Shown in pieces: positions 31,662 through 63,829 of a stretch of DNA of 64,000 nucleotides. This DNA is from Trypanosoma brucei (Eukaryota). The notes beneath the pieces are model-generated. The model ran no database searches, had not been told where the DNA came from, and saw only the letters and a program-made list of their open reading frames with translations. Position numbers and translations under genes: made by a program. Numbering within the stretch: position 1 is the stretch's first letter; each line of letters starts with the position of its first letter. The stretch spans positions 256,001 through 320,000 of the forward strand of contig CP000069.1 of the NCBI GenBank assembly GCA_000002445.1, given 5' to 3'.

Positions 31662-31663
<2 letters not shown>

Positions 31664-31696
<33 letters not shown>
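31664..31696. repeat. (CA)n microsatellite, about 16 repeats.
   Basis: cacacacacacacacacacacacacacacaca. Confidence 0.9.
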
Positions 31697-31698
<2 letters not shown>

Positions 31699-34235: not shown

Positions 34236-35303
34236 AAAAAACCCTAATTTTTATATATTTAAAGAAATATAAACCGGAACAAACAATTTAAAAGGAAGAG
34301 AAAAAGAAAAAGGAAAATTTGGACGAATGAGTGTGGAAGGACTTGCGCTGCTTTTGCATGCCTCTTCCAATACAAACACCCCAACGCACAAATACACACA
34401 CATATTAATATTAATATTAATATATATATATTCTTTCCTGAAGATGCCCCCCCCCAAACAACCCCAATTCTCCTCCCTTCCTCCTTTTTTTCCTTTTGAT
34501 CTTCCAATCAACAAAGGCACACAAAAACAGCAGATATAAACACAAAAATATAAAAGAAAACACAAACATATGTGCGAAAATATTGGACACATATAATGAT
34601 ATATTTCCTTCATTTTTCTTGTTGAAATATTCGTGTCTGTTTAGCCCCGTTTTTTAATTCATTCTCTTTTTAACACCATTCATTACTTTTATTACTATTA
34701 TCAGGTCGCCATCTATTTTCTTTTTTATTTTCTGCTTCTGTTTTTCCTCCTTCTGTGAATTATTGAAAAAGTTAGTGGATTAAAAAGAAAAAAATTAGAA
34801 ACTTTAATACCAACAAAAGCAGGCGTAATAATCACAAACACACAAACACACGCAGTTACATGTACATATATATATATGAAACGTAACAAATGGAAGGAAC
34901 AAAACAAATGAACACAAAACATCAGACATCGAAACCAAAACAAAACAATAAAAACAAGAAAACTATCTAAAAAAAAGAAAAGGAATAAAAGGAGTGATGT
35001 GTTCGGTGTCGCATAACGACGAATGGAGGGGGGAAATATACGGCCGGGATGAGAGAATAGCAATAAATGAAAAAAAAAAACAATTGAAAAGAGAAAAAAG
35101 AAAAAAACAGGCCGTAAGCACATTACTTGTCTTTGTTGGAGGAAAAAAAAGCAAAAAAAAAGAGATGGAAGTTGGGAAAGAGAAAAAAAATTCTCACCAT
35201 CGGAGTGGTGGAGCATGTTCGTTTTTTCTTTCCTGCTGATTTAACTTGATTTGTTTCCCCCTCCTTTGGTTTGTCCTGTTTCATCCTAAAATCTCATAAA
35301 CAT
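34236..35303. repeat. Left copy of a roughly 1.08 kb inverted repeat pair (partner at 58141..59233).
   Basis: By-eye alignment of the reverse complement of 34236-35303 to 58141-59233 shows roughly 97% identity over the full length, with only scattered substitutions and small homopolymer-length differences. It is also visible as near-identical ORF-track translations on opposite strands (34725..35216 minus vs 58246..58734 plus; 34251..34613 minus vs 58857..59054 plus). Confidence 0.9.
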
Positions 35304-35831
35304 ATTTATGTATACACTTATATATATATATATATATACGCGTGCGCATGCGTGTGTTTGTGTTTTACTCTATTCATTCATTTTGCTTTTTGTTTGTTTT
35401 TGGTTTTGGTTTTTCACCATACATCATGATCACACCAGTTGTTTGTTTGTTTACTTTTTTATTATTTTTCATTCCTTTCTGTTATTTTGCTTGTTTGCTC
35501 CTCTTTTACTACTGCCGTAGCATCACTTAGCCTTCACTGTATTGCTTTCTACTGTACACTTCTCGTCTCTTCTACTCCATTCTTCCTCTCTCTCTCTCTC
35601 TCTCTTTTCCTTCATCTTTGCGTATCCCAAGCTTACAGAAGTAGGCCACGACAGTAATAATAATAATAATAATAGTAAACAAAACTTGAGGTTAAAAGGA
35701 GCAGCGTATCTCATTTCTTCGGTTCCTTTCCCTCTGGCGCCTCCACCTTCCTTTTATTATTCATTCCTCATATTTCGTAGAAATCGCATAGCACTTAAAC
35801 GAACAGACGCATGGTACTCAATCCAAGTCAT

Positions 35832-41816: not shown

Positions 41817-42194
41817 GACCCCCTCGATAGCGCTAGCATGTTTGAAAGGGAAAGCGCAAAGCACCCAAGCATGTGTGCAGCATTTGGTTCCGTGAGTGGT
41901 GGAAGGGATGGAGTAAGAAAACGGAAGAAAACAACAAAGAGGTGAAACAGGTTAGTCATAGCTCAATGCCAAATTAAGTAACATAATGAGGGAGGATTTG
42001 CGGCGGTAAACACACCCTCAGCACCGCACGCCAGTGCGCACAAAGTTAGAATTCGCGCACAACAAACGCATGGAGCGTTGATAGACTTTTTTTTAAAAAA
42101 AAAGAAAAGAGGCTAAAAGTACGAATGAAACTAACGGATGCAGGAAAGGACAGCGACTCATCGGGAACGTCGAGGGGTGTCGCGAGACAACTCT

Positions 42195-47442: not shown

Positions 47443-50400
47443 TCACTCCTGCGCAGTGTCCGGCGCTTCCTCGTCTCTAGTGACAAAACCTCCTTCTTCA
47501 GTGACCGGTGCGTTGCCCTCACTCTCACCTGTAGCCTCAGGTCCTTGACTTTCACCATATTCAACACGTTTTTGACCCCCTCCAGCCACTGCGTCGTGTT
47601 CGCCTTCTCCACGCGTAGCAGTCGTCTCGGCCGATAAGAATTGATGGCTGGCGGTATAGCGGTTGAAGACTGCTAAGTTTCCAAGAGAGATGGAAATTTG
47701 CCTCATCTCTGCATCCGTCAAGTCGAAGTTTTCAAATTCATCGATCACCATTTCCGGAATGTCCCCACTACTATCACTGCAAGAGTCAGCTTCCACGTGT
47801 ATATTACCACCTTCCATCACCCTCGACGACCCCGCTTGCTCACCGGTTTCCGAAAATTCACTCTCAGAACTGTCACCTACCACCGTGTTTCCGCTTTTGA
47901 AACTCGCCAGAGGATATCCTATAGCATATGCGATGGCGCATGACAGCTCCTCCGGAAACAGGTCTGCCCGCACCCTATTTATTGAGAGGGCGAGGTAATA
48001 GTCCATGCACTCACGAACATCTCGAAGGCAGGTTGCCACATCAACATTCGTCAAATACATCTTCTTACAATTGTCGAAAAATAGCGCCGCCATGTTTTCA
48101 CTTTCCTTTTCCCCGTTTGGCACATAAGGAAAAACAGGCGTCATCCTACTTTCATGATCTGTAAAAAGTGATGGTGGAATTTCTTTTACCGACTTGACGG
48201 TAAGCTCACGGAGACATAAGGCGAGCTCTACGGGGGTCACCGCTGTGGCATCAAATATCGTGAGGTTGGTCTCAAGGAACATACGTTCGTTAAAAAATAT
48301 AAATGCCCGGTCTCCATATTTATTCTGCCTTTTCCTTGCCAACACAGATGTTGCCGCTAGTTGACAATGCTTGTCATCCCAACAAATAATCTCGGGTTGG
48401 CCTCCACTCCTTTTACTCCGGTACTCCAAAGAAGCGATCCGTGGATAAAGCGACCAAAGAACGACCAAGCGGATCAATCCTAGATTGTCAGAATGTCGAG
48501 AAGCAAATTTCACTGGATTTTTCGTCCTCCGTAGCAACGCAGAGTTCTCAACAAAACGTAGCAGCTGGTTTTTCGTGCGACTTATGGACCGCAGCACCGC
48601 TTGATCAGCGAAATTATGTATTGCATATTCTGGGCTGCACCCAGAACGTTTCCACCCATCAAAGAGTTTAAGGACGGACATGTGGTCCGAAAGAAAACCG
48701 TTGTCAATGGCGTCAACCGCTTTCTGGAGGTCACCCCTTTGATTGGGTGTATTTAAAAAGGGTGATTTCCCCGAAAGGAAGGCCGCGATTGTCGCAACCG
48801 GATCCAAAACACCAAAACAGGCAGCAGCGAGCAGCATTTTGCCCAATAACGGATGAACAGGCAACCTTGACAGCGCTCTACCAAGACTCGTCAACTGTTC
48901 AGCTTCAGGCGTGAACGCACCAATATCCTTCAAGAAATTAGTGGCATGTTTTGTTGAATATTCTGAGGGCACGTCAAGTGCACGGCTGAGAACCTCTACG
49001 CACGTTTCCTCTGGTCTTAAAGCCTTTGCAAGCAGGCAAACTTCCTCCAAGGGGGTTCTCATTATTTCCGGTGGGAGAAACTCAGGTAAAGCCTCATAGG
49101 ATGACCGCGGAAGGAGGTGAATACACACACCTGGTCGGCAACGCCCGGCTCTACCACGACGTTGCAAGCCGTTGGCTCGGCTAATGAATTCTGCTGTTAA
49201 GGCCGACGTGTTTGCTGCGGGATCGTAAGATGAAACTTTCGTGAGGCAACTGTCAACAACATAGACGATGTCGTCAATTGTTATACTCGTCTCGGCTATG
49301 TTAGTTGAAAGCACTACCTTCCGGTAGCCTTTGGGGGCACGGTAAAACACCCGCCGTTGTTCTTCCGCGGTCAGACTAGAATGCAGCTGTAGGACGGACA
49401 ACTCCCTGGACACATTTGACATTCGAATCATGTTTGCCACACGAGATATGGCCTGCCACCCCGGAAGGAAAACAAGTATACTCTCTGACAGATGTTGGGA
49501 ACTTCTGTGAATATGTCCTATAAGCTTAACCACTATGTCGTACGGTACATGGGCCTGTGAGTCAAAGCCCAGTTTCGTGTCAACGGCTTCTTTTATCTTT
49601 TCGTACACCGAGCGCTTTGCCATATCTTCAGTATTGTTACCCGTACTCTGCATTGAAAGTGCATTATTTGGCAATTTCATAGAAGCAAGTGTTGAAAGTG
49701 GCATTTGGAGCCACTGTAAGACATCTTCCATGTAACATTCTCTCACGGGATGCAGTGTCCCTGGTATCTTGATAACTGGTATTGTTTCACCAACGGTAAC
49801 GCCTGAAAAGTACGATATTATTTTCTCAACTTGTATTGTGGCGGACATGACGACTACCTTTATGTGGTTTGCATAGGCCCCTGGATTCCGCCGCTGATCA
49901 ATAATTCGGTCGCGGAGAAGTAACAAGCAAAAATCTGTTTCGACGTCCCTTTCGTGCACCTCATCCACAATGAGACAAGAGACATCGGAAAGCTGTGGAT
50001 CCGTGCGTAGACGACGCAGGAGGATTCCAGTGGTCATGTAAACAATTCTCGTTTCACTGCTTGTTATGTTGTCAAATCGGATGATATATCCACAACTGTT
50101 TCCACACGCTTCACCACGCTCCTCAGACACCCGCTGTGCAACGGAAAGGGCGCTGACCCTTCGCGGTTGGGTACACACTATCTGTAGATCTTTGTTGAAT
50201 ATCCCTGCATCGTACAACATTTGAGGTATTTGAGTAGTTTTACCGCATCCTGTGTCACCACTAATGACAACGATATCGCTTATCTTTACAGCATTGAGAA
50301 TAGCGCCCTGTTGTCGGAAAGCAGGCAATGTTACCCGGAACCTTTGCAACTCCGCATACCGGTGGCGGGGCACTTTGCTAGTCGGGACGTTCCCCAACCC

Positions 50401-51198
50401 GGGTTGCACGACGGTTAACTGTCGACCCCCCTGGCGCTGCTCTCCCCTCAGCTTCAAGTCGCGGAACATCCGCTTAAGGAGTGGCCCCACCAATAGATTG
50501 ATGTTCGAAACTTTAGGTCTGATGTATTCATCAGGAAGCCTCTGAGCCCCTTGGTAACCCTCTGTCCTCACTCGAACCCCGTTAGCAATCAAAAATTGCC
50601 TTCCCTGTTCTTCGCTCGTTTTGTTGAATTTTCTTAGCGTCAGGAAACGCTCGTTCTGCGACCCTGAAGATTTATGGAATAAACCAAAAGTGTGGGCGAA
50701 CTTATGCACCTGCTGGCGACCTGCAGCAGACAGTGTTGGGGGGAACGAGAGCTCATGAGCGGTGGGATCGTCCACAAAGGCCTTTACCATACTTTGAAGG
50801 TGCTTTTTCAGACGCTTAAAATTCTCAGGGAATCCAATACCTTTTTGATTGTCGACAATGTCCAACACGCCGCGCTTTGTGTCGGAGTTATCGGACGCAG
50901 GCATATTCTCGCACTTTTGTCGAGAATCATTTCCCCTAGGTAAGGAATTGGTGAACTCCTGCTGAACTGGAGCACGTGGCAACAAAACGGGCGGCCACCA
51001 AACACCACCGGGCATCGGAAGTGGATGACCGTACATCGGGGCAGGTGGGAAGAAGCCCGGTGAGCACGCAGCCCTAACGGAGGCATGGGGCAACATTTGT
51101 TGCAGTTGTGAGGCCTGAGGGCTGCCACCCATCGGGAAGCGACGTATGTTCGCATCAACTGTTTGATGCTTCCCGCCTTCGCATCGCTTCTGGTTCAT
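47443..51198 (-). CDS. ATP-dependent RNA helicase of the DEAH/RHA family with an N-terminal R3H domain, 1251 aa.
   Basis: The R3H-like segment is VLDIVDNQKGIGFPENFKRL...LSFPPTLSAAGRQQVHKFAHTFGLFHKSSGSQNERFLTLRKF. Helicase motifs are ISGDTGCGKTTQIPQ (motif I), LIVDEVHERD (motif II, DEVH) and VVVMSATIQ (motif III). A downstream HA2/OB-like region is followed by a Ser/Glu-rich acidic tail. Confidence 0.85.
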   Translation of the reverse strand: MNQKRCEGGKHQTVDANIRRFPMGGSPQASQLQQMLPHASVRAACSPGFFPPAPMYGHPLPMPGGVWWPPVLLPRAPVQQEFTNSLPRGNDSRQKCENMPASDNSDTKRGVLDIVDNQKGIGFPENFKRLKKHLQSMVKAFVDDPTAHELSFPPTLSAAGRQQVHKFAHTFGLFHKSSGSQNERFLTLRKFNKTSEEQGRQFLIANGVRVRTEGYQGAQRLPDEYIRPKVSNINLLVGPLLKRMFRDLKLRGEQRQGGRQLTVVQPGLGNVPTSKVPRHRYAELQRFRVTLPAFRQQGAILNAVKISDIVVISGDTGCGKTTQIPQMLYDAGIFNKDLQIVCTQPRRVSALSVAQRVSEERGEACGNSCGYIIRFDNITSSETRIVYMTTGILLRRLRTDPQLSDVSCLIVDEVHERDVETDFCLLLLRDRIIDQRRNPGAYANHIKVVVMSATIQVEKIISYFSGVTVGETIPVIKIPGTLHPVRECYMEDVLQWLQMPLSTLASMKLPNNALSMQSTGNNTEDMAKRSVYEKIKEAVDTKLGFDSQAHVPYDIVVKLIGHIHRSSQHLSESILVFLPGWQAISRVANMIRMSNVSRELSVLQLHSSLTAEEQRRVFYRAPKGYRKVVLSTNIAETSITIDDIVYVVDSCLTKVSSYDPAANTSALTAEFISRANGLQRRGRAGRCRPGVCIHLLPRSSYEALPEFLPPEIMRTPLEEVCLLAKALRPEETCVEVLSRALDVPSEYSTKHATNFLKDIGAFTPEAEQLTSLGRALSRLPVHPLLGKMLLAAACFGVLDPVATIAAFLSGKSPFLNTPNQRGDLQKAVDAIDNGFLSDHMSVLKLFDGWKRSGCSPEYAIHNFADQAVLRSISRTKNQLLRFVENSALLRRTKNPVKFASRHSDNLGLIRLVVLWSLYPRIASLEYRSKRSGGQPEIICWDDKHCQLAATSVLARKRQNKYGDRAFIFFNERMFLETNLTIFDATAVTPVELALCLRELTVKSVKEIPPSLFTDHESRMTPVFPYVPNGEKESENMAALFFDNCKKMYLTNVDVATCLRDVRECMDYYLALSINRVRADLFPEELSCAIAYAIGYPLASFKSGNTVVGDSSESEFSETGEQAGSSRVMEGGNIHVEADSCSDSSGDIPEMVIDEFENFDLTDAEMRQISISLGNLAVFNRYTASHQFLSAETTATRGEGEHDAVAGGGQKRVEYGESQGPEATGESEGNAPVTEEGGFVTRDEEAPDTAQE

Positions 51199-51413
51199 GA
51201 CAGGACCAGTATCTATAACAAGAACAAAGCAAGCAACGAGCCTCTGCGCGCCTTCCTTTCCTTTAACAAGGGGAAAGGATCAGAAAGGCAGACAAAAATT
51301 CAGCAGAATTCGAATGAAAACAGAGGGCAGATGTTGGCGGTGTCACAAGCAAACGCGGTAAAGAACTTATCACAACATCTACACAATTAGCGCTCGATAC
51401 ACACGAGAAACAC

Positions 51414-52538
51414 TCACAAGTCGTCTAGAACATCGTTCTTTCCCTTAGTGGTTTGACGCTGGTTGTACTCCTCGACGGCATGTTGTAGCTCTTCCAAAAA
51501 CAGTGTGTCATTTAAAAAATCTTCCAGCGTTCCGTTTCGTCGAGCGTCAGACGCAAGAACCTCATGTAGCACAACCTCTTCCTCGACACCGTCACCAGAA
51601 CTATAGGAAGTCACAGTTATCTCGAGGGCAGCGATGTTTCCGTACATCCAACGGCTCATGCCCACGTCTATAGCAATCACGCTGCCTCCACAAAAAGTTT
51701 CCACTCTCCCTGAGCGTTGGGGAGTGTGACCCACAACCACCCGTTTTACCCCCAGTGAAGCGAGCGCTTTTTTTGTATCGGCACAACGACCATTTGAAGC
51801 ATCAAGGAACATCTTTCGGGACCACAAAGGACCGGTTGAACCCAAAAGGATATGACCAAAATTTTTTGTACGTATCGCCTGCTTGGCTTCCCGGTTTAGC
51901 CTCTCAATTCCATCGGAAACAACATGTTCGTCAATGCCAGCATGAACAAATAAGGTATCGGCGACAGCATACGCTACTGTGAAATTTTCTAAAATAAATC
52001 CTCCGAACGTGCCGTCGAGTTCAAACGCGCGCTTGCGCAACGCCCTTGTCAAAAACCCACCCATAGATTTTGAATGGACATAATGAAAGTGACCCTGAAG
52101 ATTTAGAAGCTCGTGATTTCCCATAAGCAGAACTACTTTGTCATCAGTGTAGTTCGTGCGCACCTCATTAAAAAGCGAAACAGCCATCTCAAGTACCTCC
52201 AAATCTTCCTCACCTCTATCAATCAAATCTCCAGTTTGTATTAGGGTTGTCCGCAATCGTGTGCCGTATTCCCTAAAGAAGTTACCTTCCTTAGTCCCCC
52301 ATCTGGGCTTCCACACCACTTGTTTACTACTGTTAGAACGTAGGCTAATGACGCCGGACATCTCAAGGATTTGCCGAAAACGCTCGGCATCTCCATGCAC
52401 ATCTCCGACGGCCACAATACGGTGTATTTCAATGGGAATGACATTCCTGCTAAGGGGGTTTGCGTCTACATTAGCACAACATCGTATGCCCAAATGTGCA
52501 ACCAGAACTAGCGAAATTAACAAGTATTTCCCCACCAT
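51414..52538 (-). CDS. Shewanella-like (bacterial-type) PPP serine/threonine phosphatase with an N-terminal signal peptide, 374 aa.
   Basis: The signal peptide is MVGKYLLISLVLVAHLGIRCCA. Metallophosphatase motifs are AVGDVHGD, GDLIDRG, GNHE and VGHTP. It is the first (5'-most) gene of the minus-strand transcription unit in this window. Confidence 0.8.
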   Translation of the reverse strand: MVGKYLLISLVLVAHLGIRCCANVDANPLSRNVIPIEIHRIVAVGDVHGDAERFRQILEMSGVISLRSNSSKQVVWKPRWGTKEGNFFREYGTRLRTTLIQTGDLIDRGEEDLEVLEMAVSLFNEVRTNYTDDKVVLLMGNHELLNLQGHFHYVHSKSMGGFLTRALRKRAFELDGTFGGFILENFTVAYAVADTLFVHAGIDEHVVSDGIERLNREAKQAIRTKNFGHILLGSTGPLWSRKMFLDASNGRCADTKKALASLGVKRVVVGHTPQRSGRVETFCGGSVIAIDVGMSRWMYGNIAALEITVTSYSSGDGVEEEVVLHEVLASDARRNGTLEDFLNDTLFLEELQHAVEEYNQRQTTKGKNDVLDDL

Positions 52539-52599
52539 TAAAGACGGCTAAAGTATTAAACTGTCTGGTACACAACACGATATTTTGTGTCAATACGAA

Positions 52600-55500
52600 A
52601 CACCTTAGATATTAGAAGTCGAGAAGGACATCATACGAGAACTGAAGGCAGGAGAAGGTTGAAAACACAAAAACAGCCCACAATCAGACAAATACTGAGT
52701 GAACAAGGCACCATTAGCACAGTTCGTAATGTCCTTAACGTAATAGGGATGACTCCTTTGCTGACACAAACACATGGTCGAAGACAAATCATTGCACAAG
52801 ATGCGCACCCCTGGCACTGGAAAGGCGCTAGTGCAGTTACCTGGACTGGGGCTCTCTCTCTCCCCCCCAAACGAAACCAAGTTGTTGAGCAGCATCAGGT
52901 GTTGAGACTCACACACTCATTATTGTTCGGATGCTGGCACATGTCCATAATCACAAATAATAAAAAAGTTATCTGTCACCACCTTCAGAGGCCATACCTG
53001 CCGACATTTGTTTCCTCATTTTTAAAAAGTTCCCTCGACATAAAAGGAGGATTTAAGCACGGAGGTGTTGTTACAATTGGAGCCGGGGCTAGTTGCACCC
53101 GGCTCGAAAGTGATGTGACCGACAAACCTCCGACTACGGCCCTCTTATGCAAACAAAGCACCACGGGCATGGTACAAGTAGTCAAGTGAAGCTCTAACAA
53201 TAACAATCATAATAGAGTATTACTGTATCTATTTGGTTCTTCGCGAGACTCTCGGCATCACTTGCGAGCACAGAAAAACAAGCGGAAACCCATAGCATTC
53301 TCAGCATTTAACATGCTTCCAAGGGCGGATCTTTTGATGTGCATTCATTTAAATAAGAAAAGATCCCAGATCGTGCGTTCATGACACATGGTGACGTTGG
53401 CAATAGCCAGCTAAGCCGGAGGACATGGTTCATTTTTGTATTTCGACCCTTTCAACTTAAAAAAGAATTAGCACTCTATGACCGCGGCTAATCACGGCGA
53501 AAACACAAATTCATTTCATTTGATTCATTTCTTAGCGCGCTCTTCACCCATGCGCCCCCACCTCTGCGCCACTCCCATTTCGCACTATTCTTAGTGGTGT
53601 AAAGGTTGTGGGGGTGGGTCGTTCCCCAGCAACACATCCTGGGCTTACAAACAGGGTTATGGGCTAAAAATGCACTCCAGCGACCGTGTGAACCGAATCA
53701 ATTGCCCACAGCTCGCCGGAAGTTTGCAGCTTCCGACGGAACTTGCAAACGGAGAAAGCCGTCCGGACGACAACCAGTAAATATGTCACTAGGGGCGGAC
53801 AAACAAATAAGTAAAGGTTTCTACCACTTTCATTCACTTTCCACCCCTTTCCCCACCGCGTTGCTCAATCTGTCATTATATCAATATCCGGCATCACCTG
53901 CACAGCGACGAGATGTGCTCAACACCGTTACACTTGACGGATCGCAGTGACACGGGTGATTGACTCTCGAGCTCGCAGTTGGTGGCATTAGCGGCTGTCC
54001 CGCGTTATTGTTCACTAAACGGGGTCACTGATCTCCCTGACGCTCCTATCAATACGCATCAGAGGACAGCGTACATCGGCCTTCTTTTTCTTTGGAAACG
54101 GAAAAGGTAAACGAGGAAAGAACGAAGATGATAAAATCTGCGGGTTCGCAAGTGGATTTATGGAGCAGAACCAATTTGCTGACCTTCAATATTGTTCACC
54201 TCCTACAGCAAAGCGGAAACGGCATTACATCTCCTGCCTTAGCTATTCAGTGAGAGTTTGTTCCACTACTGGTGAGAGAATGGATCATTCCATTGTTCTC
54301 CCTTGTTGTGTATGATGTAGTGCGCTTATTTGTTTTTCGAGACACCCATTCAATTGATACCTTTTTAGGCGAAATAATCGTTTCAATCTTTAGCAACCTT
54401 ACTTTGATGCTTTCTCTTCCTCCCTCTTGCTATTCTTTTCGTTGCAGTCAAGTGATCACGCGGAAAATGAATCGATTGATGCAGGGCTTTTGTTTCAGTT
54501 GCAGCCGGCTTTGCCTAAGCATGGTGGCATGAACAATGGAGCGACAACACCTCTTTCACGTCGTGTGCACTTCGACCGTACATTCTCTGAACTTTCGTTG
54601 CATTTCCCCTTCTTTATCAGTGAACAATTCTCACCATACGCTTGACTGGAACATTTTGGAGGTGATAGTGTGATGTTACGCAATACACAGCCGAATCCAA
54701 ACACTCTATTAGCGTTGGGCTCGTGTTAACGGCTTCCGGTGAACGATCAGTACTATCTGAATATCACCCTCGGGAAGCTGATCGAGAGTGTTGCCATGTG
54801 CCACAGCAGTATAATATCCGTATTTCAGGCAGGTTCTTCCCCCTTTCGTTTGTGCAGGTAACGCAAAGAAGTGTTTCAACCCTCTTTCTAGAAGGTGTGT
54901 CAGAACATTTCTTTGCGTACTTGTGGTGTCGGGAGAACACGACCCGCCGGAGTTCCTCTGTATGTTTTGGAAGTGATGCCCTCCCCAGAGTGTTTTGTGC
55001 TTCCTATTCTCTTCTATACCACCACAACCGTGAAGTTGTCGATGTGCCACGCCAGGCGTAACCGCGGCATAATGTTGCTCTCGCTATTCTTTCCCTCTGT
55101 TTTTTCACTTTACCATTTATTCTGCAGAATGAAAAGCAGCGAATCGTTCCGTTGGTACTGCCTTTTTTGTTGCTAATTTTGGTGCGCATTTCTATATACG
55201 TCGCGACCCTCCCTCTCCACTACTGTGGGGCCCTTTTTTTTTGTGACAGCAATGAAAGAGACAATGGCTCGGCGAAAATTGTCGTTCTCCTTCGGCTTTT
55301 TGGTCGCTCCATTACAGTGCGGAAAACCGTTGAAAATTCGCTTTCAACTGCCATACCTTCCGCACGGCAACTGCATGTTGCTTTGCCTGTTCCAAGGAAA
55401 TAATCCATCGTTAGTTCCTCATTCCTCAGTGGTATTGAGGTTCTGGTCCTTGGTGAATCGTCCAGCATTTCCATTTCACCTATCTAAACATGCCAGTCAA

Positions 55501-57800
55501 ATTTCCTGAGTCTTATCACCTTTCTTATTCTTTGCGCTTTTCATCACCTATGGCATCTGCTTTCAGCACCCAGATGCTGCACAATCGGAGGAGGACATCC
55601 TCGCTAACAAGAGGTATTCAACTTTACGTGGTTTCTCCAATCTGTCAAAATTATCGTAACGCCCCCCCTTTTCATTGCGCTTTTACACCTGGCGTTCCTA
55701 TAGGAAAAGCTGCCTCTGCATCTGCTCAAAGAAGATGCTTTTTTACTTAGAGGGATAGGGAGGGGGCTAACACTCTCCTGAATGCAACGCCTGCTCCAGT
55801 TATGAGCGTGGCTCCTTTTTGTATGGCCTCCTCATTCGCTGCCTTTGGCAAAGCAGACATCGTGTGTGCAGCTTGCGCACGCATGCGACCACGAATATTG
55901 CGGTGTGGAGGTGACGGCAAATACTAACGGAAAATCGCGGCACAGCAAATTTCCCCATTGCGTAACACGTCAGCGATGTGACCCGATCTCAGTGATCCCT
56001 CTCTCCAACCCTGCTCTATAGGTGAGACGGCCCCAGCCGCAGTAGTCTTCGTGGTTCTTTTGTTGCCCCCTTTGTGAACTTCACTACTTCGAATGACTAA
56101 AGCACTAGGCTAATTAGCTTCGGTCACTTCCCCCTACATTTTCGTAATCCGTGTGGAGGTTATGGGCGTCGGCACGCCTGATCCCAAGGCACACAAATCT
56201 CTTTTCCTCAGTTAATACGTCCAAATAGTGTTGCGTTAAGCACTGGGTGACACACCCTACTCGTTACTCTTGCATATCGTCGACATTTTCCAGATCCATG
56301 TCATTGGGCGTGGTCGTGGGATCCTCTGAAAAGAGCCTACCGCGAAACTCCGAAATGCTACCTCGTCTTCTGTTGAGGGATTACACCCCAACCGTGTATA
56401 AGATTGGCATCTGAGCCAACCCTTGCGATGTTCTGCAGGTTACGGATACAGTTTCTAACCACGTGTCGCCAATCTCCACTTGGGGTCTTGAAGTGAACAA
56501 CAACTGTCGCATCCACTTCGTCGGCTGGAAATATATTTTCCAGCGATCTAGCGCCAAAATCATACGTGCATGCTCTACCGGGCTCAATGTTATCAGATAG
56601 CTCAGAAACATCACTACCGCCTCCCCTCCTCCTTGCCCGCCGGCTTATTACACCAAGCGGCTGTGCCATAGCACTCGTTGATGGGCACTTGAAGCCCTGG
56701 CCGCTGTGGCTAAGGTGAGGCGTCCCGTTTATTCTTCAGTTTCTCAGTGTCTTTCTTTCCATTAGCTTGCAGGGGCCGCCTGTTACGGTCACTGGCCGCG
56801 GTCGCGCCACCTATGTCGCAGCCTTGTTTGTCTCCAAGGTCGGTGTTAAAATGCCCTTCCCTCCGCCGTTTCGCCATGGCGTTGGGCCCAGCGCACCAGT
56901 TATTATTTCCAGGGAGGTCCTGTCCCTCTTTCCGCTCGAGATCCTGCAATTTATCTCCATGCTTATGATCCGCCCCCGGTGCCGCCCCTTTAGCAAATTC
57001 ACTTACAGCTGACTTTCGTTTAGCTCGCGATGAGAGGGCATGACCGTGCGGTTGTTTGCTGGCGGCGATCCGCTATTTGGGGGGTGGGGGCGGATCGGCC
57101 TCTCTGTGGGATTCTTGGAGAGTAGCTCTGTGGGTACGCTCGCCTCCACTCCGCTCGTTGTTTCTCCTTTTCGGTAGGCGTTGACTGGTCGCCGGTACCC
57201 GCGTGCGCGGCGCGTCTCCGCTCCGGACTCACCCTGGTCAAGCGAATTGACACCGTTTCGAGTGCTGTTGGGGGTTAGGTGCCCAGAGGGCCGTTACCGC
57301 CCTTTGGCGGGTGTGGCGGGGTCGCTTCAGCTTCCTTACGGGCTCGGAGCAGTGCCGTTGCCGAGCGGTACGCTTGTACGCATTCTGCGGGGTGGTAAAA
57401 CCCTTTGTTTTCATTGCATATTGGCCCATGATCACGAGGGTTGATGGTTGTAGCAAAGGGACGGTGCAATTTAAGCGCGCGCGCAGGGGGACCATATATC
57501 AAAACATATCTGTGAGTTTAAACGACTTCACAAGTGCTGCTCCTAGTGATTTTTTAAGTACCTGGGGAAGTATTTGGGTCCTCGAGCCGGTAAGTGTGTT
57601 GGGTTGCTCCCCCTACTGTGTGGTTCTTGATCCCCTAGTGGTGCGGATAAATGGACGCCTGACTAGAGAGACCGGCCGTAGCGTTGTCGTTCTTTTGACT
57701 TTCTTTAGATCTGACAAGATGCCACTTGTTCAGTTGGGTGCGCTGACTGTTTGACTTCTGCCTCACGGCCCCAACAATCCCTGTGACAGTTAGAAAAAAA
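52600..57800. other. ORF-poor block of complex, non-low-complexity sequence about 5.2 kb long. Candidate degenerate retroelement (ingi/DIRE-like) or decayed pseudogene(s). No intact coding capacity.
   Basis: Base composition and k-mer complexity look like coding DNA, unlike the pyrimidine/purine-tract intergenic regions elsewhere. The longest ORFs are 60 to 200 aa in all six frames, with no recognisable motifs. Its size matches ingi-family elements (about 5.2 kb), but no RT or endonuclease motif was recognised by eye. Confidence 0.3.
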
Positions 57801-58140
57801 AACTGAGGAAATCTTATGCGAGACATGATGTCGGGACGATCATTCATTACCGATTACCGACTCAGTAGCATTGCCGTGTCGGTATATCGGACAACTTTAC
57901 CGAATCAACCCTCTGTACGAAAACTAAAGACCCAATAAATCACCTATCTTGCAAATCCGTGACGTTCGTCGTTTAGATATTTAATACTTCTCGTTACTAA
58001 ACACGACACTCTTAGGACTGCAGAAGCATAACATTTTACATAAAAGCCAACAGCCCCCCCCAAAAAAAAAAATTAAATTGAAGTCGTTGCCCTAGCAAAA
58101 GGCGAAAACAATGCCAAACTCTAAGAAACTTGCAGATATA

Positions 58141-59233
58141 AATATATTTATGAGATTTTAGGATGAAACGGGACAAACCAAAGGAGGGGGAAACAAATCA
58201 AGTTAAATCAGAAGGAAAAAAAAACGAACAAGCTCCACCACTCCGATGGTGAGAATTTATTTCTCTTTCCCAACTTCCATCTCTTTTTTCTTTGCTTTTT
58301 TTTCTTTTTTTTTCCTCCAACAAAGACAAGTAATGTGCTTACGGCCTGTTTTTTTCATTTTTCTCTTTTCAATTGTTTTTTTTTCATTTATTGCTATTCT
58401 CTCATCCCGGCCGTATATTTCCCCCCTCCATTCGTCGTTATGCGACACCGAACGCATCACCCCTTTTATTCCTTTTCTTTTTTTTTTTAGAGAGTTTTCT
58501 TGTTTTTATTATTTTGTTTTGGTTTCGATGTCTGATGTTTTGTGTTCATTTGTTTTGTTCTTCCCATTTGTTGCGTTTCATATATATATATATGTACATG
58601 TAACTGCGTGTGTTTGTGTGTTTGTGATTATTACGCCTGCTTTTGTTGATATTAAAGTTTCTAATTTTTTTCTTTTTAATCCACTAACTTTTTCAATAAT
58701 TCACAGAAGGAAGAAAAACAGAAGCAGAAAATAAAAAGAAAAAAGAAAAGAAAAGAGATGGCGACCTGATAATAGTAATAAAAGTAATGAATGGTGTTAA
58801 AAAGAGAATGAATTAAAAAACGGGGCTAAACAGACACGAATATTTCAGCAAGAAAAATGAAGGAAATATATCATTATATGTGTCCAATATTTTCGCACAT
58901 ATGTTTGTGCTTTCTTTTATATTTTTGTGTTTATATCTGCTGTTTTTGTGTGCCTTTGTTGATTGGAAGATCAAAAGGAAAAAAAAGGAGGAAGGGAGGA
59001 GAATTGGGGTTGTTTGGGGGGGGGCATCTTCAGGAAAGAATATATATATATTAATATTAATATTAATATGTGTGTGTATTTGTGCGTTGGGGTGTTTGTA
59101 TTGGAAGAGGCATGCAAAAGCAGCGCAAGTCCTTCCACACTCATTCGTCCAAATTTTCCTTTTTCTTTTTCTTTTCCTTTTAAATTGTTTGTTCCGGTTT
59201 ATATTTCTTTAAATATATAAAAGTTAGGGGTTT
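58141..59233. repeat. Right copy of the inverted repeat pair, ending about 0.8 to 0.95 kb upstream of the adenylate cyclase CDS.
   Basis: Same alignment as above. The boundaries are where similarity decays, at about 58141 (tttatgagattttagg) and about 59233 (aaatatataaaagttagggg). Confidence 0.9.
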
Positions 59234-60004
59234 CGTTGTTGTTCTACGCGTTGCCATTTAACGTTGCTACGTTATTTTCTTACATATCAAATCTTCCAGT
59301 GGTAATTCTTCCCTTGTATGCCAACAGGAGTGCGTAGACCTGCATTATCTTTTAAAAAATACATATTACCTTCTTACGTGTTAACTTTGTGAAACATAAC
59401 CTATGCGACATGATCTTTTCGAATGGTGGATATGCAAATGACTCTGCCCCAATGCCATGTGTCATGCTGTCCAGCACTCAGTGTTGGTGGTGACTTTATG
59501 AGCACCGCTTTAACTATTGTTTGGCAGTGCATTCCTTGTTTTTATGAAGTCAGGTTGATGCGCAGTGGTTGTCGTTATTTCTTTCCCTCATATATATACG
59601 CATGTGCATATTTCAGTATTTAAATACGTATGCTTACCTTGTTTGAGGTTCTATCATATTTGAAAAACATTTTTTTATTTTTGTTTTGTCTACCTCACTT
59701 TGATGCTATATTTATCCACTACGGCACAGCAGGTGGCACCTTCCTCACACAGTCCCATGGAGGTTTATTTGCGATTGCCCAGGAAGTGGAACAGGAGGGG
59801 GAATATGGGAGTTAGGCGATGCGTCACAATTGCACTTTGCCGCTCTTACGGTGAGTTAACCGAATATTCTTTCGTGTGTGAACCGTAGTATTTCCACCCT
59901 CCCAGGGTTGAGGGTTTAATATTTTGATTATGTCGCGATTGGTGACTTTCTATTTCTGTCCAATACGTCGCCGGGCATGATCTGCATATGTATTAAGCGC
60001 GCCG

Positions 60005-63000
60005 ATGCCACTTTACTGGTTTCTATTTTCCCTCTTCGATATTCTTCTCGAAGACACAAGATTTCACATACGAATAATACCACACATTCCCGAAAATATG
60101 TGCCGGCAGGAAGGTGGCGGCAGAGGATGTGTGTACCCTCATGGAAACTGCAGGCGGAACCTTACCGCAAGGAGCCCTGCAGGGCGTTACAGCATGTACA
60201 AGCACTCACCTGTCATTACTGCTATGTCACTGCTACACTTGTTGCCTTTGCTACTCATGTGGATGCCACCTGTGTGCGCGGATGACAGTGCTGTGACGGT
60301 AAATGTGCTATCCATGATGTACAATTCGGAATATTACGTTGAGAAAGTGAACGCCATCAATGCCGGCTTTGACGCATCACTGAGTGCCCACGGTTGGAAG
60401 ACGGGCTCCGGTGCGACAATATCTGTCATCCGTCCCCCATCGTACAACACCACAGCTGAGGACATATTTCAGCTGGGGGCGAAACAAAGTGAAGGGAAGT
60501 TATTAGTTGTATTTGGGCCCCTGGGTACTGACCCTGTCGTTTGGGTTCGTGATAAACTAAAGGAAAATGATCTTGTTGCCATCGCTCCTATTGCGTACTC
60601 CAGTGAGGTCCGTGGTTGGAACCCTCACCTCTATTCAATAAGTGTCGAACCCAATGCTGAGCTCCTCGCCCTCATTCGATACGCTGTTGTTTATCTGGGT
60701 CTGCCGCGTGTAGGTTTGATGTATGCGAAGGGTAATGGGTTTGACAAGGAGTCATATGAGTTTACCATGCGAATAATGGAAATGATGGGCCGCAAGCCAT
60801 GTGGAGTGTTCGCTGTGGAGAGCAGTGGGGGTCGGGACGTCTTGGAGGGTGAATTGAATACCAAGTGGGGGCAATTTGTTGCTGCACGTCCGCAGGCTGT
60901 ACTGCTATTTTCATCGCTAGAGGAAGAAACCACCGGGTGGTTTGTCAAGAAGATAGCACAGGACAACCGCACTATGGACATGTACCTGCTCGCCCCTTCC
61001 AGTTTTCAACATTTTCTGATCAAAACATGGAGCGATGCGCTGGTGTCACTTAATCGTACGTTCACTCCTGGACAGCTGATCACAACTGGAACAGTGCCAC
61101 TCGCTAGTGACAATCGGTCCTCGATGGTTCGGCACTTCCAGCGTGACATGGACAATTACCTGGATACAAACAGTGACTGGAAGGGCTTTGCGAAACCTGA
61201 ACATTACCTTAAGGACGACAAATTAGGGGAGATGATGGTGTTTGGATGGCTTGCGGGAGAAGTTCTGTTTGAGGCCCTAAACAACGCTCCACAACTGACA
61301 AACCGTACTTCATTCATGGAATCTCTGTACAAGCAGCGTCGCTACGTGATTGATGACTTTGTGGTTGGTGACTTTGGTGGTGAGTGCGATGAGGGCGCTG
61401 CATTACAGGGTGCCATGTGTAATTGCAATCAAGGTGGCAGCATGGCGCATATGAGAGTTGTTGATGACAGCCTCAGTTTGAAGCCTATGAAAAAAGGCTC
61501 TGTGACGTGGAGTGTATCGGAGTGCTCAAGTGCTAATGTGCAGGTGAGCGCACCGTTAATCGGACTGTATGTAGTCCTTACGGATGATAAAGTTGCACAA
61601 CGTGCGAGCATGAGGTGGTCGTTGGGCGCTCGGAGCCTCGAGGAAGCGGATGATGTTGATAAGAGAATATTTTTCCATTCCTTAAAGGTTAATTTAAAAA
61701 ATTTAACGCAATCACTTGAACAAGTAAGGGACACGAAGGCTGTAGCTGCAGTTCTTGGTGTTGTTACCGCTGATATTCTGAGCGTGCCGAATATGACTTT
61801 CATTGGCCCTATTCCATTGTTCCCCCGGTTGAACAAGTTCTGGAGAAACGTGATCCATCTGCAACCGCTACTTGCGCAGCAGCTATATGTGCTTGCTGTA
61901 TACCTCTCCAACACCTCTTCCTTGGGAGTGAAGGCGCTTGTTCGCGGGAGTGAAGCATCTGAGGTTGTAGACACGCTTGATAAGTCATTGGTTACGTTTG
62001 GTGTGTCGCTTGATTCCAGTAAGACACTTGGTGATGGTGACCCGATATCGTCATATCTCTCGGGTAATGGAGATGTGTTTTGTATTGGACTCACTCCCCC
62101 TGACGTTGCTGCGGTTGCGCGGCACCTTCAGACCCACCTCAGGGCACGTGTATTCGTTCCATTCAATGACATTTTGTTGTTTTACCAGGAGTTTGTGGCT
62201 GCATTTAATGCGAGTAAAGAGTCTATTGCCAGCTCAGAGCGGCTCCTATTCGCGACGAGTTTCCCACACTGGGCAAAGAAGAACACGAAATCAGATATGG
62301 TTGCGAGATTTCATCGCCATGTAAATGAATCGCATTGGGATCCACTAACGTTCCTGGGCTTTGCTACCACTCGGCTGCTTCAGGTTGTTATCTCCAATAT
62401 GAAGAAAGTGAATGCAGAGCTGCTGGCAGACCGCATTTACACGGAGTCCAACATCAGAGTGGATGACGTGCGATTTGGACCCTTCAGTGATGCGGAATGT
62501 GTTTCTGGTACGAGTGTTTCGGCAAATGAGTGTGCCTCAAACTTTGGAGCCACAAACATTTCTGTATGGTCGATGGCGCGTGTGCTGAATTCAAGCTTGC
62601 CCAGGACACAGGTTGGGATGACACCGTCTATGGACTATGTTATTCCGCAAGAGGGTCAACTCACACAGTCACAGATAGCTGGAATAATTTCTGGGTGTGT
62701 ATCCGCCTTGTTATTATTTATTGCCCTTGGTGTGTTCCTACACATCTCCCTGCGGAACGCTCGTAACAACAACCGTGCACCCAAGGAGCCAACGGACCCC
62801 GTGACACTAATATTTACTGACATTGAGAGCAGCACTGCGTTGTGGGCTGCACACCCTGATCTGATGCCCGATGCCGTCGCCGCGCATCATCGTATGGTCC
62901 GTTCACTGATTGGGAGGTATAAGTGCTACGAAGTTAAAACTGTTGGGGATTCGTTCATGATAGCGAGTAAGAGTCCTTTCGCTGCCGTCCAACTCGCACA

Positions 63001-63829
63001 GGAATTACAGCTGTGTTTCTTGCATCATGACTGGGGAACAAATGCAGTTGATGATTCTTACCGTGAGTTTGAGGAGCAGCGTGCGGAGGGAGAATGTGAG
63101 TACACACCACCAACCGCGCATATGGATCCTGAAGTGTACAGTCGTTTGTGGAATGGCCTGCGTGTACGTGTTGGAATCCACACCGGGTTGTGCGACATCC
63201 GACACGATGAAGTGACGAAGGGATATGACTACTATGGGCGGACTCCAAACATGGCAGCAAGGACGGAGAGTGTAGCAAATGGTGGTCAGGTGCTGATGAC
63301 GCATGCGGCGTACATGTCGCTGTCAGCTGAGGATCGTAAGCAAATTGATGTCACTGCACTTGGTGCTGTCGCACTTCGCGGTGTGAGTGATCCGGTTAAG
63401 ATGTACCAGCTGAATACCGTGCCTAGTCGTAACTTTGCTGCATTGCGGCTGGACCGCGAATACTTTTTTGATGAGGGCGAGGATGGCACGACAACCTCCA
63501 CAAGCGACCACAGTTCTTCACGTGCGGAGCTGAGTGAATCAGCTCAGATAATTGCAACTGCACTACAGTCGCTGTTAAGCACGTTCAAGACAGCGCATCG
63601 TGAGAAGTTGTTGCTGCCGTATTGTGAGCGTTGGCGTGTGCCTCTTCCCCGTAAAGCTGCATCCGAGTGGGATGACGCCTACTGTGAGGAAGTGGTGCGT
63701 CGCATTGCAGTTAAGGTTGGGCGTGTCGCTGACCATGGCGCTCATAGTGGAAGTGAGTCTTCAAGTACGCAAGGCAGTTCATCAATTATTATCGTCCCCT
63801 TTTACGACATGCACCTTCAGGAATACTAA
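60005..63829 (+). CDS. GRESAG4: Receptor-type adenylate cyclase (GRESAG4/ESAG4 family). Longest ORF is 1274 aa. The likely functional start is downstream, either the first AUG after the predicted splice acceptor at 60098 or the signal-peptide Met at 60194 or 60224.
   Basis: Architecture is a signal peptide (MSLLHLLPLLLMWMPPVCA), then a large extracellular periplasmic-binding-protein-like domain, then a single TM helix (IAGIISGCVSALLLFIALGVFLHI, about aa 890), then a class III cyclase catalytic domain (LIFTDIESSTALWAAHPDLM...YKCYEVKTVGDSFMIASKSPF...VRVGIHTGLCDIR...YYGRTPNMAARTES). A polypyrimidine tract at 60018-60052 lies inside the longest ORF. Confidence 0.9.
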   Translation: MPLYWFLFSLFDILLEDTRFHIRIIPHIPENMCRQEGGGRGCVYPHGNCRRNLTARSPAGRYSMYKHSPVITAMSLLHLLPLLLMWMPPVCADDSAVTVNVLSMMYNSEYYVEKVNAINAGFDASLSAHGWKTGSGATISVIRPPSYNTTAEDIFQLGAKQSEGKLLVVFGPLGTDPVVWVRDKLKENDLVAIAPIAYSSEVRGWNPHLYSISVEPNAELLALIRYAVVYLGLPRVGLMYAKGNGFDKESYEFTMRIMEMMGRKPCGVFAVESSGGRDVLEGELNTKWGQFVAARPQAVLLFSSLEEETTGWFVKKIAQDNRTMDMYLLAPSSFQHFLIKTWSDALVSLNRTFTPGQLITTGTVPLASDNRSSMVRHFQRDMDNYLDTNSDWKGFAKPEHYLKDDKLGEMMVFGWLAGEVLFEALNNAPQLTNRTSFMESLYKQRRYVIDDFVVGDFGGECDEGAALQGAMCNCNQGGSMAHMRVVDDSLSLKPMKKGSVTWSVSECSSANVQVSAPLIGLYVVLTDDKVAQRASMRWSLGARSLEEADDVDKRIFFHSLKVNLKNLTQSLEQVRDTKAVAAVLGVVTADILSVPNMTFIGPIPLFPRLNKFWRNVIHLQPLLAQQLYVLAVYLSNTSSLGVKALVRGSEASEVVDTLDKSLVTFGVSLDSSKTLGDGDPISSYLSGNGDVFCIGLTPPDVAAVARHLQTHLRARVFVPFNDILLFYQEFVAAFNASKESIASSERLLFATSFPHWAKKNTKSDMVARFHRHVNESHWDPLTFLGFATTRLLQVVISNMKKVNAELLADRIYTESNIRVDDVRFGPFSDAECVSGTSVSANECASNFGATNISVWSMARVLNSSLPRTQVGMTPSMDYVIPQEGQLTQSQIAGIISGCVSALLLFIALGVFLHISLRNARNNNRAPKEPTDPVTLIFTDIESSTALWAAHPDLMPDAVAAHHRMVRSLIGRYKCYEVKTVGDSFMIASKSPFAAVQLAQELQLCFLHHDWGTNAVDDSYREFEEQRAEGECEYTPPTAHMDPEVYSRLWNGLRVRVGIHTGLCDIRHDEVTKGYDYYGRTPNMAARTESVANGGQVLMTHAAYMSLSAEDRKQIDVTALGAVALRGVSDPVKMYQLNTVPSRNFAALRLDREYFFDEGEDGTTTSTSDHSSSRAELSESAQIIATALQSLLSTFKTAHREKLLLPYCERWRVPLPRKAASEWDDAYCEEVVRRIAVKVGRVADHGAHSGSESSSTQGSSSIIIVPFYDMHLQEY
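60018..60052 (+). promoter_or_regulatory. Polypyrimidine tract with a downstream AG. Putative spliced-leader acceptor for the adenylate cyclase mRNA.
   Basis: The sequence tttctattttccctcttcgatattcttctcgaag is followed by the first in-frame AUG at 60098. Confidence 0.4.

What the first reader, a model, noticed from the sequence alone, without database searches (positions are those of the whole stretch)
52539..60004. Divergent strand-switch region, 7.5 kb, larger and more complex than typical
Fourteen consecutive minus-strand genes end at 52538 and the next gene at 60005 is plus-strand, so this is a head-to-head (divergent) junction. Such junctions are Pol II transcription start regions in kinetoplastids, with H2A.Z/H2B.V and acetylated-histone deposition. 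At 7.5 kb and with mostly non-repetitive sequence it is atypical. It contains an ORF-poor complex block, a GC-rich island and one copy of the inverted repeat.
Basis: partly seen in the sequence, partly recalled or inferred. Interest (0 to 1): 0.55.

Follow-up and report, generated by a model that had tools for sequence, protein, structure and literature searches.

The report
Ordinary, already mapped trypanosome transcription-start gap
This 7.5-kb gene-free gap is the known head-to-head junction between two gene clusters on Trypanosoma brucei chromosome 6, already catalogued as a transcription start region, and its size and make-up are normal for such junctions.

Summary
The window is T. brucei TREU927 chromosome 6 (Tb927_06_v4 256,001-320,000). 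The gap 52539-60004 (7,466 bp) lies between Tb927.6.750 (phosphatase, minus) and Tb927.6.760 (first of five tandem GRESAG4 adenylate cyclase genes, plus).

The junction is already known. Kolev et al. 2010 (Table S14) list Tb927.6.750->.560 (-) and Tb927.6.760->.800 (+) as 'Divergent' Pol II transcription units. The same paper maps a trans-spliced, polyadenylated minus-strand transcript, Tb6.NT.32, at window 54089->52725. The minus unit therefore reaches 1.55 kb into the 'gap'.

'Larger and more complex than typical' is not supported:
- The literature gives 5-10 kb for T. brucei divergent junctions.
- The window holds a 7,357-bp inter-gene gap inside the minus unit.
- The orthologous phosphatase follows a 6-10 kb gene-free, similarly GC-rich gap in L. 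mexicana, T. grayi, T. melophagium and T. theileri.

The interior shows no protein, Pfam, Rfam or tRNA signal. It diverges about 2.8-fold faster than its flanks within T. brucei and is not conserved in other species.

Verdict: real, ordinary, already known. Interest is low.

The parts
51414..52538 (-). Tb927.6.750, kinetoplastid ser/thr phosphatase; first annotated gene of the minus-strand unit (left flank)
   Evidence: 100% identical to XP_845198 of T. brucei TREU927; Pfam Metallophos; listed as first ORF of the unit in Kolev Table S14
52539..52724 (-). Phosphatase 5' region: pyrimidine tract and candidate splice-acceptor AG at 52643/52642 on the minus strand
   Evidence: read from the sequence; acceptor position is a prediction
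52725..54089 (-). Tb6.NT.32, a published trans-spliced and polyadenylated transcript of about 1.36 kb; longest ATG ORF is 61 aa
   Evidence: Kolev 2010 Table S7: chr6 310089->308725, minus strand, level 2.71. Offset 256,000 comes from the Tb927.6.740 coordinates. AG at 54091/54090 is preceded by a pyrimidine tract at 54100-54135 on the minus strand. ORFs
54234..54234 (.). Strand-composition switch point: window-wide minimum of cumulative G+T excess
   Evidence: left of it the minus strand is G+T-rich, right of it the plus strand is
54090..56599 (.). Unique, complex, ORF-free block (GC 46.9%); plus strand pyrimidine-rich; inferred inter-promoter valley and/or minus-strand start zone
   Evidence: composition and compressibility like coding DNA; skews; no Pfam or protein homologue on either strand
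56600..57799 (+). GC-rich island (55.9% overall, up to 65%); from 57000 G+T-rich on the plus strand with G runs; inferred 5' part of the plus-strand start region
   Evidence: no unusual RNA folding (z = -1.44 and -0.60)
57790..58250 (+). A-rich stretch with C8A11 at 58054-58072 (a G8 run on the minus strand)
58138..59233 (+). Arm B of a 1.1-kb inverted repeat: AT-rich, UTR-like, low complexity. It holds most plus-strand matches to the published G/T-rich promoter 10-mers, including a G9 run at 59016-59024
34238..35309 (-). Arm A of the inverted repeat, in the long 3' region downstream of Tb927.6.690
   Evidence: Tb927.6.690 poly(A) sites from Kolev file 29
58382..59157 (+). Core of a segment of about 0.8 kb in arm B that is absent from T. 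b. gambiense DAL972 and T. b. equiperdum
   Evidence: (about 814 gap columns)
59234..60193 (+). Unique T-rich upstream region and probable 5' UTR of the first cyclase gene; pyrimidine tract and AG at 60019-60054
   Evidence: sequence reading; inference
60005..63829 (+). Tb927.6.760, receptor-type adenylate cyclase GRESAG4; first of the five-gene plus-strand unit (right flank)
   Evidence: Pfam; PMC2854126; Kolev file 22 and Table S14

Best explanation
This is the divergent strand-switch region of T. brucei chromosome 6 between Tb927.6.750 and Tb927.6.760 (Tb927_06_v4 308,539-316,004).

Proposed mechanism: it works as two oppositely directed, dispersed RNA polymerase II transcription start regions. 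One drives the Tb927.6.750->.560 unit leftwards. The other drives a short unit made only of five GRESAG4 adenylate cyclase genes rightwards.

Shown:
- The head-to-head gene arrangement.
- The absence of any coding, tRNA or known RNA gene in the gap.
- The published classification of both units as 'Divergent' Pol II units.
- A published processed minus-strand transcript, Tb6.NT.32, occupying 52725-54089. Minus-strand transcription must therefore start to the right of 54135.

Inferred from strand composition:
- The minus-strand start zone lies just right of 54.1 kb.
- The plus-strand start region begins at about 57.0 kb, at the GC/G+T-rich island, and runs through the UTR-like repeat to the cyclase gene.
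- 54.2-57.0 kb is the valley between the two.

No part of the interior is under detectable sequence constraint. What is conserved is the position of the unit boundary, immediately upstream of the phosphatase gene, from Leishmania to Trypanosoma.
For: - Identity of the locus. The helicase Tb927.6.740 CDS at 303443-307198 equals window 47443-51198.
- Catalogued as divergent Pol II units: Kolev 2010 Table S14 and text.
- Tb6.NT.32 coordinates coincide to the base with an AG preceded by a pyrimidine tract on the minus strand.
- No tRNA, Rfam, Pfam or protein homologue. The 209-codon ORF matches only an unnamed 82-aa automatic call at 96% identity, taken to be T. brucei-group.
- Composition: cumulative G+T excess is minimal at 54234. 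G+T fraction is 0.59-0.61 with G runs at 57.0-57.75 kb on the plus strand. This fits the G/T coding-strand bias of start regions in Wedel 2017.
- Size is normal: '5-10 kb', about 10-kb H2A.Z regions, and a 7,357-bp intra-unit gap in the same window.
- Positional conservation: in L. mexicana the phosphatase is the first gene after a 5,979-bp divergent gap. In T. grayi, T. melophagium and T. theileri it follows 6-10 kb with no credible gene.
- No sequence conservation among these gaps.
- Faster divergence inside the gap: 86 mismatches in 5,000 nt against 65 in 10,500 nt in the flanks, TREU927 versus gambiense.
Against: - No chromatin or nascent-RNA track could be read here. The histone marks and the exact start sites at this particular locus rest on published genome-wide statements, not on data I inspected.
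- The composition signals disagree on where the switch lies. G+T excess turns at 54.2 kb, but cumulative GC skew bottoms at about 57.0 and 58.5 kb.
- A G8 run on the minus strand (58054) and a G9 run on the plus strand (59016) sit back to back 1 kb apart. This would fit start sites much further right.
- The plus-strand 10-mer matches lie almost entirely in arm B. Its twin, arm A, sits inside a transcription unit and is not a listed start site, so these matches are weak evidence.
Confidence: 0.88

Rival explanations
1. The true switch point is at about 58.1-59.0 kb. Minus-strand transcription starts near the G8 run at 58054. Most of the 'gap' (54.1-58.0 kb) would then be a long transcribed minus-strand leader or unannotated non-coding transcripts, with the plus promoter at the G9 run at 59016.
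For: - Cumulative GC skew is lowest at 58.4-58.6 kb, and C exceeds G on the plus strand up to 57.0 kb.
- Oppositely oriented G runs sit at 58054 (minus) and 59016 (plus). G runs are by far the most enriched coding-strand 10-mers at the 5' ends of start regions.
- Tb6.NT.33 and .34 are missing from the held copy of the transcript table, so further transcripts cannot be excluded.
Against: - T exceeds A on the plus strand throughout 54.2-57.8 kb. The minus strand is therefore purine-rich and poor in pyrimidine tracts there.
- G+T excess turns at 54234.
- Arm A carries the same G9 run inside a transcription unit that has no listed internal start.
Confidence: 0.15
2. The complex, coding-like block (52.5-57.8 kb) is the decayed remnant of one or more genes or of a degenerate ingi/DIRE-type retroelement. 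It now merely fills the junction.
For: GC of 47-56% and compressibility equal to coding DNA, unlike the AT-rich, low-complexity inter-gene DNA of the same window. The block is about 5.3 kb long, close to an ingi element (own knowledge).
Against: - No Pfam domain at E<=1 in six frames.
- No homologue for stop-free fragments of either strand among 5.8 billion proteins, which include the T. brucei proteome.
- No similarity to any protein of the window, including the cyclase, or to the genes upstream of the orthologous gap in other species.
- Stops are at random density.
- Equally GC-rich, ORF-free gaps occur at the same place in four other species.
Confidence: 0.08
3. Besides Tb6.NT.32, the gap encodes a functional non-coding RNA. 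This could be a long non-coding RNA or an unrecognised small RNA, for example in the GC island.
For: Tb6.NT.32 is a real processed transcript with only small ORFs of 61 aa or less. More than 1,400 mostly intergenic long non-coding RNAs are reported in T. brucei.
Against: - No Rfam match even at E<=1.
- Folding energy of the GC island is not unusual on either strand.
- The interior diverges about 2.8-fold faster than its flanks within T. brucei and has no counterpart in other species.
Confidence: 0.1

Closest known systems
Divergent strand-switch regions / Pol II transcription start regions of T. brucei (Siegel 2009; Kolev 2010; Wedel 2017; Cordon-Obras 2022)
   Same: Head-to-head units. A gene-free gap in the 5-10 kb range. 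Listed by name in Kolev Table S14. G/T strand bias and G runs. No conserved sequence motif. A processed non-coding-looking transcript next to the first gene.
   Different: Nothing essential differs. Local details: the plus unit consists only of five GRESAG4 genes, and the plus side carries a 1.1-kb inverted copy of 3'-UTR-like DNA from 23 kb away.
The orthologous unit boundary upstream of the same phosphatase gene in Leishmania mexicana and in T. grayi, T. theileri and T. melophagium
   Same: The phosphatase is the first gene after a 6-10 kb gene-free gap of GC equal to or higher than the coding DNA. Downstream gene order is the same: helicase, L14e, CoaE, alanyl-tRNA synthetase.
   Different: No DNA similarity in the gap. 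The partner unit differs: MAM33 and others in L. mexicana. In T. theileri the next gene upstream is on the same strand.
Dispersed, bidirectional CpG-island-type promoters of mammals (the analogy drawn by Kolev 2010)
   Same: Broad initiation zone, bidirectional output, a GC-rich segment, no TATA-like motif.
   Different: It drives polycistronic units whose mRNAs are made by trans-splicing. CpG observed/expected is unremarkable here, 0.88-0.93.
ingi/DIRE retroelement remnants at unit boundaries
   Same: Similar length and GC content of the complex block.
   Different: No reverse-transcriptase or endonuclease remnant and no protein-level similarity.

Membership tests
T. brucei divergent strand-switch region / Pol II start region | Flanking gene clusters point away from each other | tested here: met
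   14 minus-strand genes end at 52538; a plus-strand cyclase follows from 60005
T. brucei divergent strand-switch region / Pol II start region | No protein-coding, tRNA or other known gene between the two first genes | tested here: met
   The only feature is the transcript Tb6.NT.32
T. brucei divergent strand-switch region / Pol II start region | Primary (5'-triphosphate) transcripts start here on both strands | tested here: met
   Looked up, not recomputed. Kolev 2010 Table S14 lists both units as 'Divergent'. The text states enrichment at every divergent unit
T. brucei divergent strand-switch region / Pol II start region | Enrichment of H2A.Z, H2B.V, H4K10ac and BDF3 | not testable with these tools
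   No ChIP tracks are available. The literature says all divergent junctions carry these marks
T. brucei divergent strand-switch region / Pol II start region | G/T-rich coding-strand bias and G runs at the 5' end of each start region | tested here: inconclusive
   G+T excess switches at 54234, and 57.0-57.75 kb is G+T-rich with G runs. GC skew points further right. The published 10-mers hit mainly the UTR-like repeat
T. brucei divergent strand-switch region / Pol II start region | Length in the usual range | tested here: met
   7,466 bp here and 6,659 bp in gambiense, against '5-10 kb' in the literature
ingi / DIRE non-LTR retroelement remnant | Remnants of reverse transcriptase or endonuclease coding sequence | tested here: not met
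   No Pfam match at E<=1 in six frames. No protein homologue
ingi / DIRE non-LTR retroelement remnant | Conserved 5' signature of about 79 nt and a 3' poly(A) with target-site duplication | not tested
   No reference element sequence was available in the tools. An A11 run at 58062-58072 exists but has no matching direct repeats
Small RNA gene cluster (snoRNA, snRNA, tRNA) | Match to a known RNA family, or tandemly repeated units | tested here: not met

The most novel reading that the evidence does not exclude
The plus-strand unit served by this junction contains nothing but five GRESAG4 adenylate cyclase genes. The unique GC-rich block at 56.6-57.8 kb could be a sequence-specific core promoter or regulatory RNA locus. 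That would allow transcription-level control of this one gene family, by analogy with the epigenetic silencing of the HpHbR unit (Tb927.6.400-.440) on the same chromosome.
Probability: 0.07. Interest if true: 0.5.

Novelty: already known. Interest (0 to 1): 0.12.

Why it matters
It matters little beyond good book-keeping.

- The junction is one of the roughly 60 divergent Pol II start regions catalogued in T. brucei since 2009-2010.
- The check shows that its length, GC content and complexity are normal.
- The check also shows that part of the gap is a known transcript.
- The useful side results are a clean example of a transcription-unit boundary whose position is kept from Leishmania to Trypanosoma while its sequence is completely replaced, and the observation that its interior diverges faster than its flanks within T. 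brucei.

Tried and rejected
- Hidden gene or pseudogene. Six-frame Pfam scans, tblastn with all window proteins and two searches of 5.8 billion proteins with all stop-free fragments of 35 aa or more found nothing.
- The 209-codon ORF at 52560-53186 (+). An exhaustive HMMER search of 1.84 billion proteins found only an unnamed 82-aa automatic call at 96% identity, taken to be T. brucei-group. Its length is within chance.
- Decayed copy of the neighbouring cyclase, or of Tb927.6.690 whose 3' region is duplicated as arm B. No similarity beyond the 1.1-kb repeat.
- Known RNA families, tRNA, tandem repeats. None found.
- Structured RNA in the GC island. z-scores are -1.44 and -0.60.
- Conserved non-coding elements. 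None found between the T. brucei gap and those of T. theileri, T. melophagium, T. grayi or L. mexicana. Even T. theileri against T. melophagium shares only the gap edges.
- Genes from the other side of the orthologous gaps. None is present in the window.
- The inverted repeat as the footprint of an inversion. Rejected, because the gene order .750-.700 is the same in all species examined.
- Exact-sequence look-ups of TREU927 proteins in the contig index failed.
- Siegel 2009 and Cordon-Obras 2022 are not held in the library, so their locus-level data and promoter motif could not be used.
- The lncRNA catalogue supplements are not held.
- The two 734-aa ORFs at 3370 and 11496 looked like duplicates by length but are unrelated.
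Full report
**Where the window comes from.** The 374-aa protein encoded at 51414-52538 (-) is 100% identical to the 'serine/threonine protein phosphatase, putative' of Trypanosoma brucei brucei TREU927 (XP_845198), carried on a 1,618,915-bp record. The 1251-aa helicase at 47443-51198 (-) is XP_845197. A paper names it Tb927.6.740, an RNA helicase of 139 kDa. Kolev et al. 2010 give its CDS as Tb927_06_v4 303443-307198 on the minus strand. Window coordinate x is therefore chromosome 6 coordinate x + 256,000. The phosphatase is then Tb927.6.750. The 1274-aa ORF at 60005-63829 (+) has two adenylate-cyclase periplasmic-binding-like domains and a cyclase catalytic domain. It is Tb927.6.760, the first of a five-copy tandem array of GRESAG4 genes, Tb927.6.760-.800.

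**The observation.** Every sequence fact in the finding holds.
- There are fourteen consecutive minus-strand genes: thirteen complete ORFs and one that runs off the left edge.
- The space between the phosphatase start codon and the first ATG of the cyclase ORF is 7,466 bp.
- It has no tRNA and no Rfam family at gathering score or at E<=1. Only trivial tandem repeats are present.
- Stop codons occur about once per 25 codons in all six frames.
- The longest open stretch is 209 codons on the plus strand at 52560-53186. With local composition preserved, 9.4% of shuffles reach that length.
- GC is 41-54% from 52.5 to 56.5 kb, 57-65% from 56.6 to 57.4 kb, and 28-37% from 58.0 to 59.4 kb.
- The only repeat is 58138-59233, the reverse complement of 34238-35309 at 95.2% identity.

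**It is already catalogued.** Table S14 of Kolev et al. 2010 ('Putative Pol II transcription units') lists 'Tb927.6.750 - Tb927.6.560, minus, Divergent' and 'Tb927.6.760 - Tb927.6.800, plus, Divergent'. The paper states that 5'-triphosphate RNA reads were enriched at every divergent transcription unit, at the sites previously marked by variant and modified histones. It also states that initiation is bidirectional and spread over a broad region. I could not inspect the ChIP or RNA tracks for this locus. That part rests on the published genome-wide statements.

**Part of the 'gap' is a known transcript.** Table S7 of the same paper lists Tb6.NT.32 at chr6 310089->308725 on the minus strand, 1,364 nt, level 2.71. 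It is among the transcripts described there as trans-spliced and polyadenylated. In window coordinates this is 54089->52725. On the minus strand an AG sits at 54091/54090, directly after a pyrimidine tract (54100-54135). The first transcript base is therefore 54089, exactly as published. This also verifies the coordinate offset. The transcript holds only small ATG ORFs, 61 aa at most. The minus-strand unit thus extends 1.55 kb into the finding, and minus-strand initiation must lie to the right of about 54135.

**The interior is not a hidden or decayed gene.**
- Six-frame translations of 52539-58300 match no Pfam family at E<=1, apart from one meaningless 12-bit hit.
- No window protein, including the cyclase and the gene whose 3' region is duplicated, resembles it.
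- All stop-free fragments of 35 aa or more from the plus strand (54.1-58.2 kb) and the minus strand (52.5-58.2 kb) found nothing at E<=0.01 among 5.8 billion proteins.
- The 209-codon ORF matched only an unnamed 82-aa automatic call at 96% identity from short-read assemblies, taken to be T. brucei-group.
- T. b. gambiense annotation calls two small ORFs in the gap. Against TREU927 they differ by 11 nonsynonymous to 3 synonymous codons, and by 4 to 0. The phosphatase shows 3 to 5 and the helicase 10 to 13. The two small ORFs behave as non-coding DNA.
- The GC island does not fold better than shuffled controls on either strand.

**Is it atypical? No.**
- Length: divergent strand-switch regions of T. 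brucei are described as '5-10 kb' with two oppositely oriented core promoters. H2A.Z-marked start regions are about 10 kb wide. The same window contains inter-CDS gaps of 7,357 bp (28475-35831) and 5,921 bp inside the minus unit.
- Composition: 52.5-57.8 kb is indeed unlike the AT-rich, compressible inter-gene DNA of the window (GC 31-35%). It resembles coding DNA in GC and complexity. This seems to be normal for this boundary. The orthologous phosphatase gene is preceded by a 5,979-bp divergent gap in Leishmania mexicana. In T. melophagium, T. grayi and T. theileri it is preceded by about 6, 8 and 9-10 kb without a credible gene. In all of them the gap has GC equal to or above that of the adjoining genes.

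**Positional but not sequence conservation.** Downstream gene order is the same in all these species: phosphatase, helicase, L14e, CoaE, alanyl-tRNA synthetase. The gaps share no detectable DNA similarity with the T. brucei gap. Even T. theileri and T. melophagium share only the gap edges. None of the genes on the far side of those gaps occurs in the window. Within T. brucei, TREU927 and gambiense differ at 86 of 5,000 positions in 53-58 kb, but at 65 of 10,500 in 42-52.5 kb. The interior therefore evolves about 2.8 times faster than its flanks. This fits lack of constraint, possibly with transcription-associated damage at start regions. The damage explanation is inference.

**How it most likely works.** Wedel et al. 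[quoted passage not shown]
- In this window the cumulative G+T excess of the plus strand falls across the whole minus unit and turns at 54234. That is about 150 nt upstream of the Tb6.NT.32 acceptor.
- From 54.2 to 57.0 kb the plus strand is T-rich but also C-rich, an ambiguous signal.
- From 57.0 to 57.75 kb, in the GC island, the plus strand is clearly G+T-rich (0.59-0.61) with seven G runs of 4 or more bases against two C runs.
- An A-rich stretch follows, then the T-rich, UTR-like repeat arm, then the cyclase.

My reading, marked as inference, has three parts:
- Minus-strand initiation lies just right of 54.1 kb.
- There is a valley at 54.2-57.0 kb.
- Plus-strand initiation runs from about 57.0 kb onward.

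The main rival is that both promoters lie further right, at the back-to-back G8 (minus strand, 58054) and G9 (plus strand, 59016) runs. Cumulative GC skew is lowest there. Against it, the same G9 run exists in repeat arm A, inside a unit with no listed internal start. Only strand-specific primary-transcript data can settle this.

**The inverted repeat.** Arm A (34238-35309) lies downstream of Tb927.6.690. That gene has a main poly(A) site 255 nt after its stop codon and further sites about 3.5 kb downstream. Arm B reads the same way on the plus strand, so it is a displaced copy of 3'-UTR/intergenic-type DNA. T. b. gambiense and the gap-free T. b. equiperdum assembly keep only the outer 244 and 74 nt of arm B and lack about 0.8 kb. 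Equiperdum has a full arm A. In gambiense the arm A region is an assembly gap. The two TREU927 arms are more alike (95.2%) than TREU927 arm A is to equiperdum arm A (90.9%). This suggests gene conversion or rapid indel turnover in low-complexity DNA. The ORFs of 162-163 aa in the arms are frame-shifted relative to each other and are spurious. Gene order rules out an inversion between the arms.

**Verdict.** This is a real feature, correctly recognised as a divergent transcription start junction. It is ordinary in size and make-up, and it is already listed in the literature together with a transcript inside it. Novelty: already known. Interest: low.

Noticed in passing
window 58138-59233 and 34238-35309; L001 4124-4405; L008 9275-10374: The 1.1-kb inverted repeat is polymorphic. 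T. b. gambiense and T. b. equiperdum lack about 0.8 kb of arm B, while equiperdum keeps a full arm A. The TREU927 arms are closer to each other (95.2%) than arm A is to its equiperdum orthologue (90.9%). This hints at gene conversion between the arms.
   Followed up: partly
window 60005-60230: The first ATG of the cyclase ORF (60005) is probably not the start codon. A pyrimidine tract with AG lies at 60019-60054, and a signal-peptide-like N-terminus (MYKHSPVITAMSLLHLLPLLLMW...) begins at the ATG at 60194. The exact 1274-aa product is not in the protein collection.
   Followed up: partly
window 28475-35831: This 7.36-kb AT-rich (31% GC), low-complexity stretch without genes lies inside the minus-strand unit, between Tb927.6.680 and .690. 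It is as long as the strand-switch gap. Published poly(A) sites of Tb927.6.690 lie 255 nt and about 3.5 kb downstream of its stop codon.
   Followed up: no
window 53000-58000 versus 42000-52500 (alignment with L001, L002): Between T. brucei subspecies the strand-switch interior differs at 1.7% of positions, against 0.6% in the flanking genes and spacers. The 3' spacer at 45.3-47.4 kb is almost invariant.
   Followed up: partly
window 59500-62500; L001 1-4200: The 5' half of the cyclase gene is unusually divergent between subspecies, at 2-3% per 500 nt. T. b. equiperdum shows a block of 144 mismatches in 500 nt at 61.5-62.0 kb. This looks like mosaic exchange among GRESAG4 copies.
   Followed up: no
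window 43469-45256; L003 15561-18721; L005 13703-16792: T. theileri and T. grayi have two genes (about 350 aa and about 575 aa) between the helicase and L14e. T. brucei has one 595-aa ORF plus a 2.2-kb coding-like spacer (45257-47442). The 350-aa proteins align to the N-terminal two thirds of the T. brucei ORF.
   Followed up: no
Kolev 2010 Table S14: The plus-strand unit that starts at this junction consists only of the five GRESAG4 genes Tb927.6.760-.800. It then meets the convergent unit Tb927.6.1290-.820.
   Followed up: no
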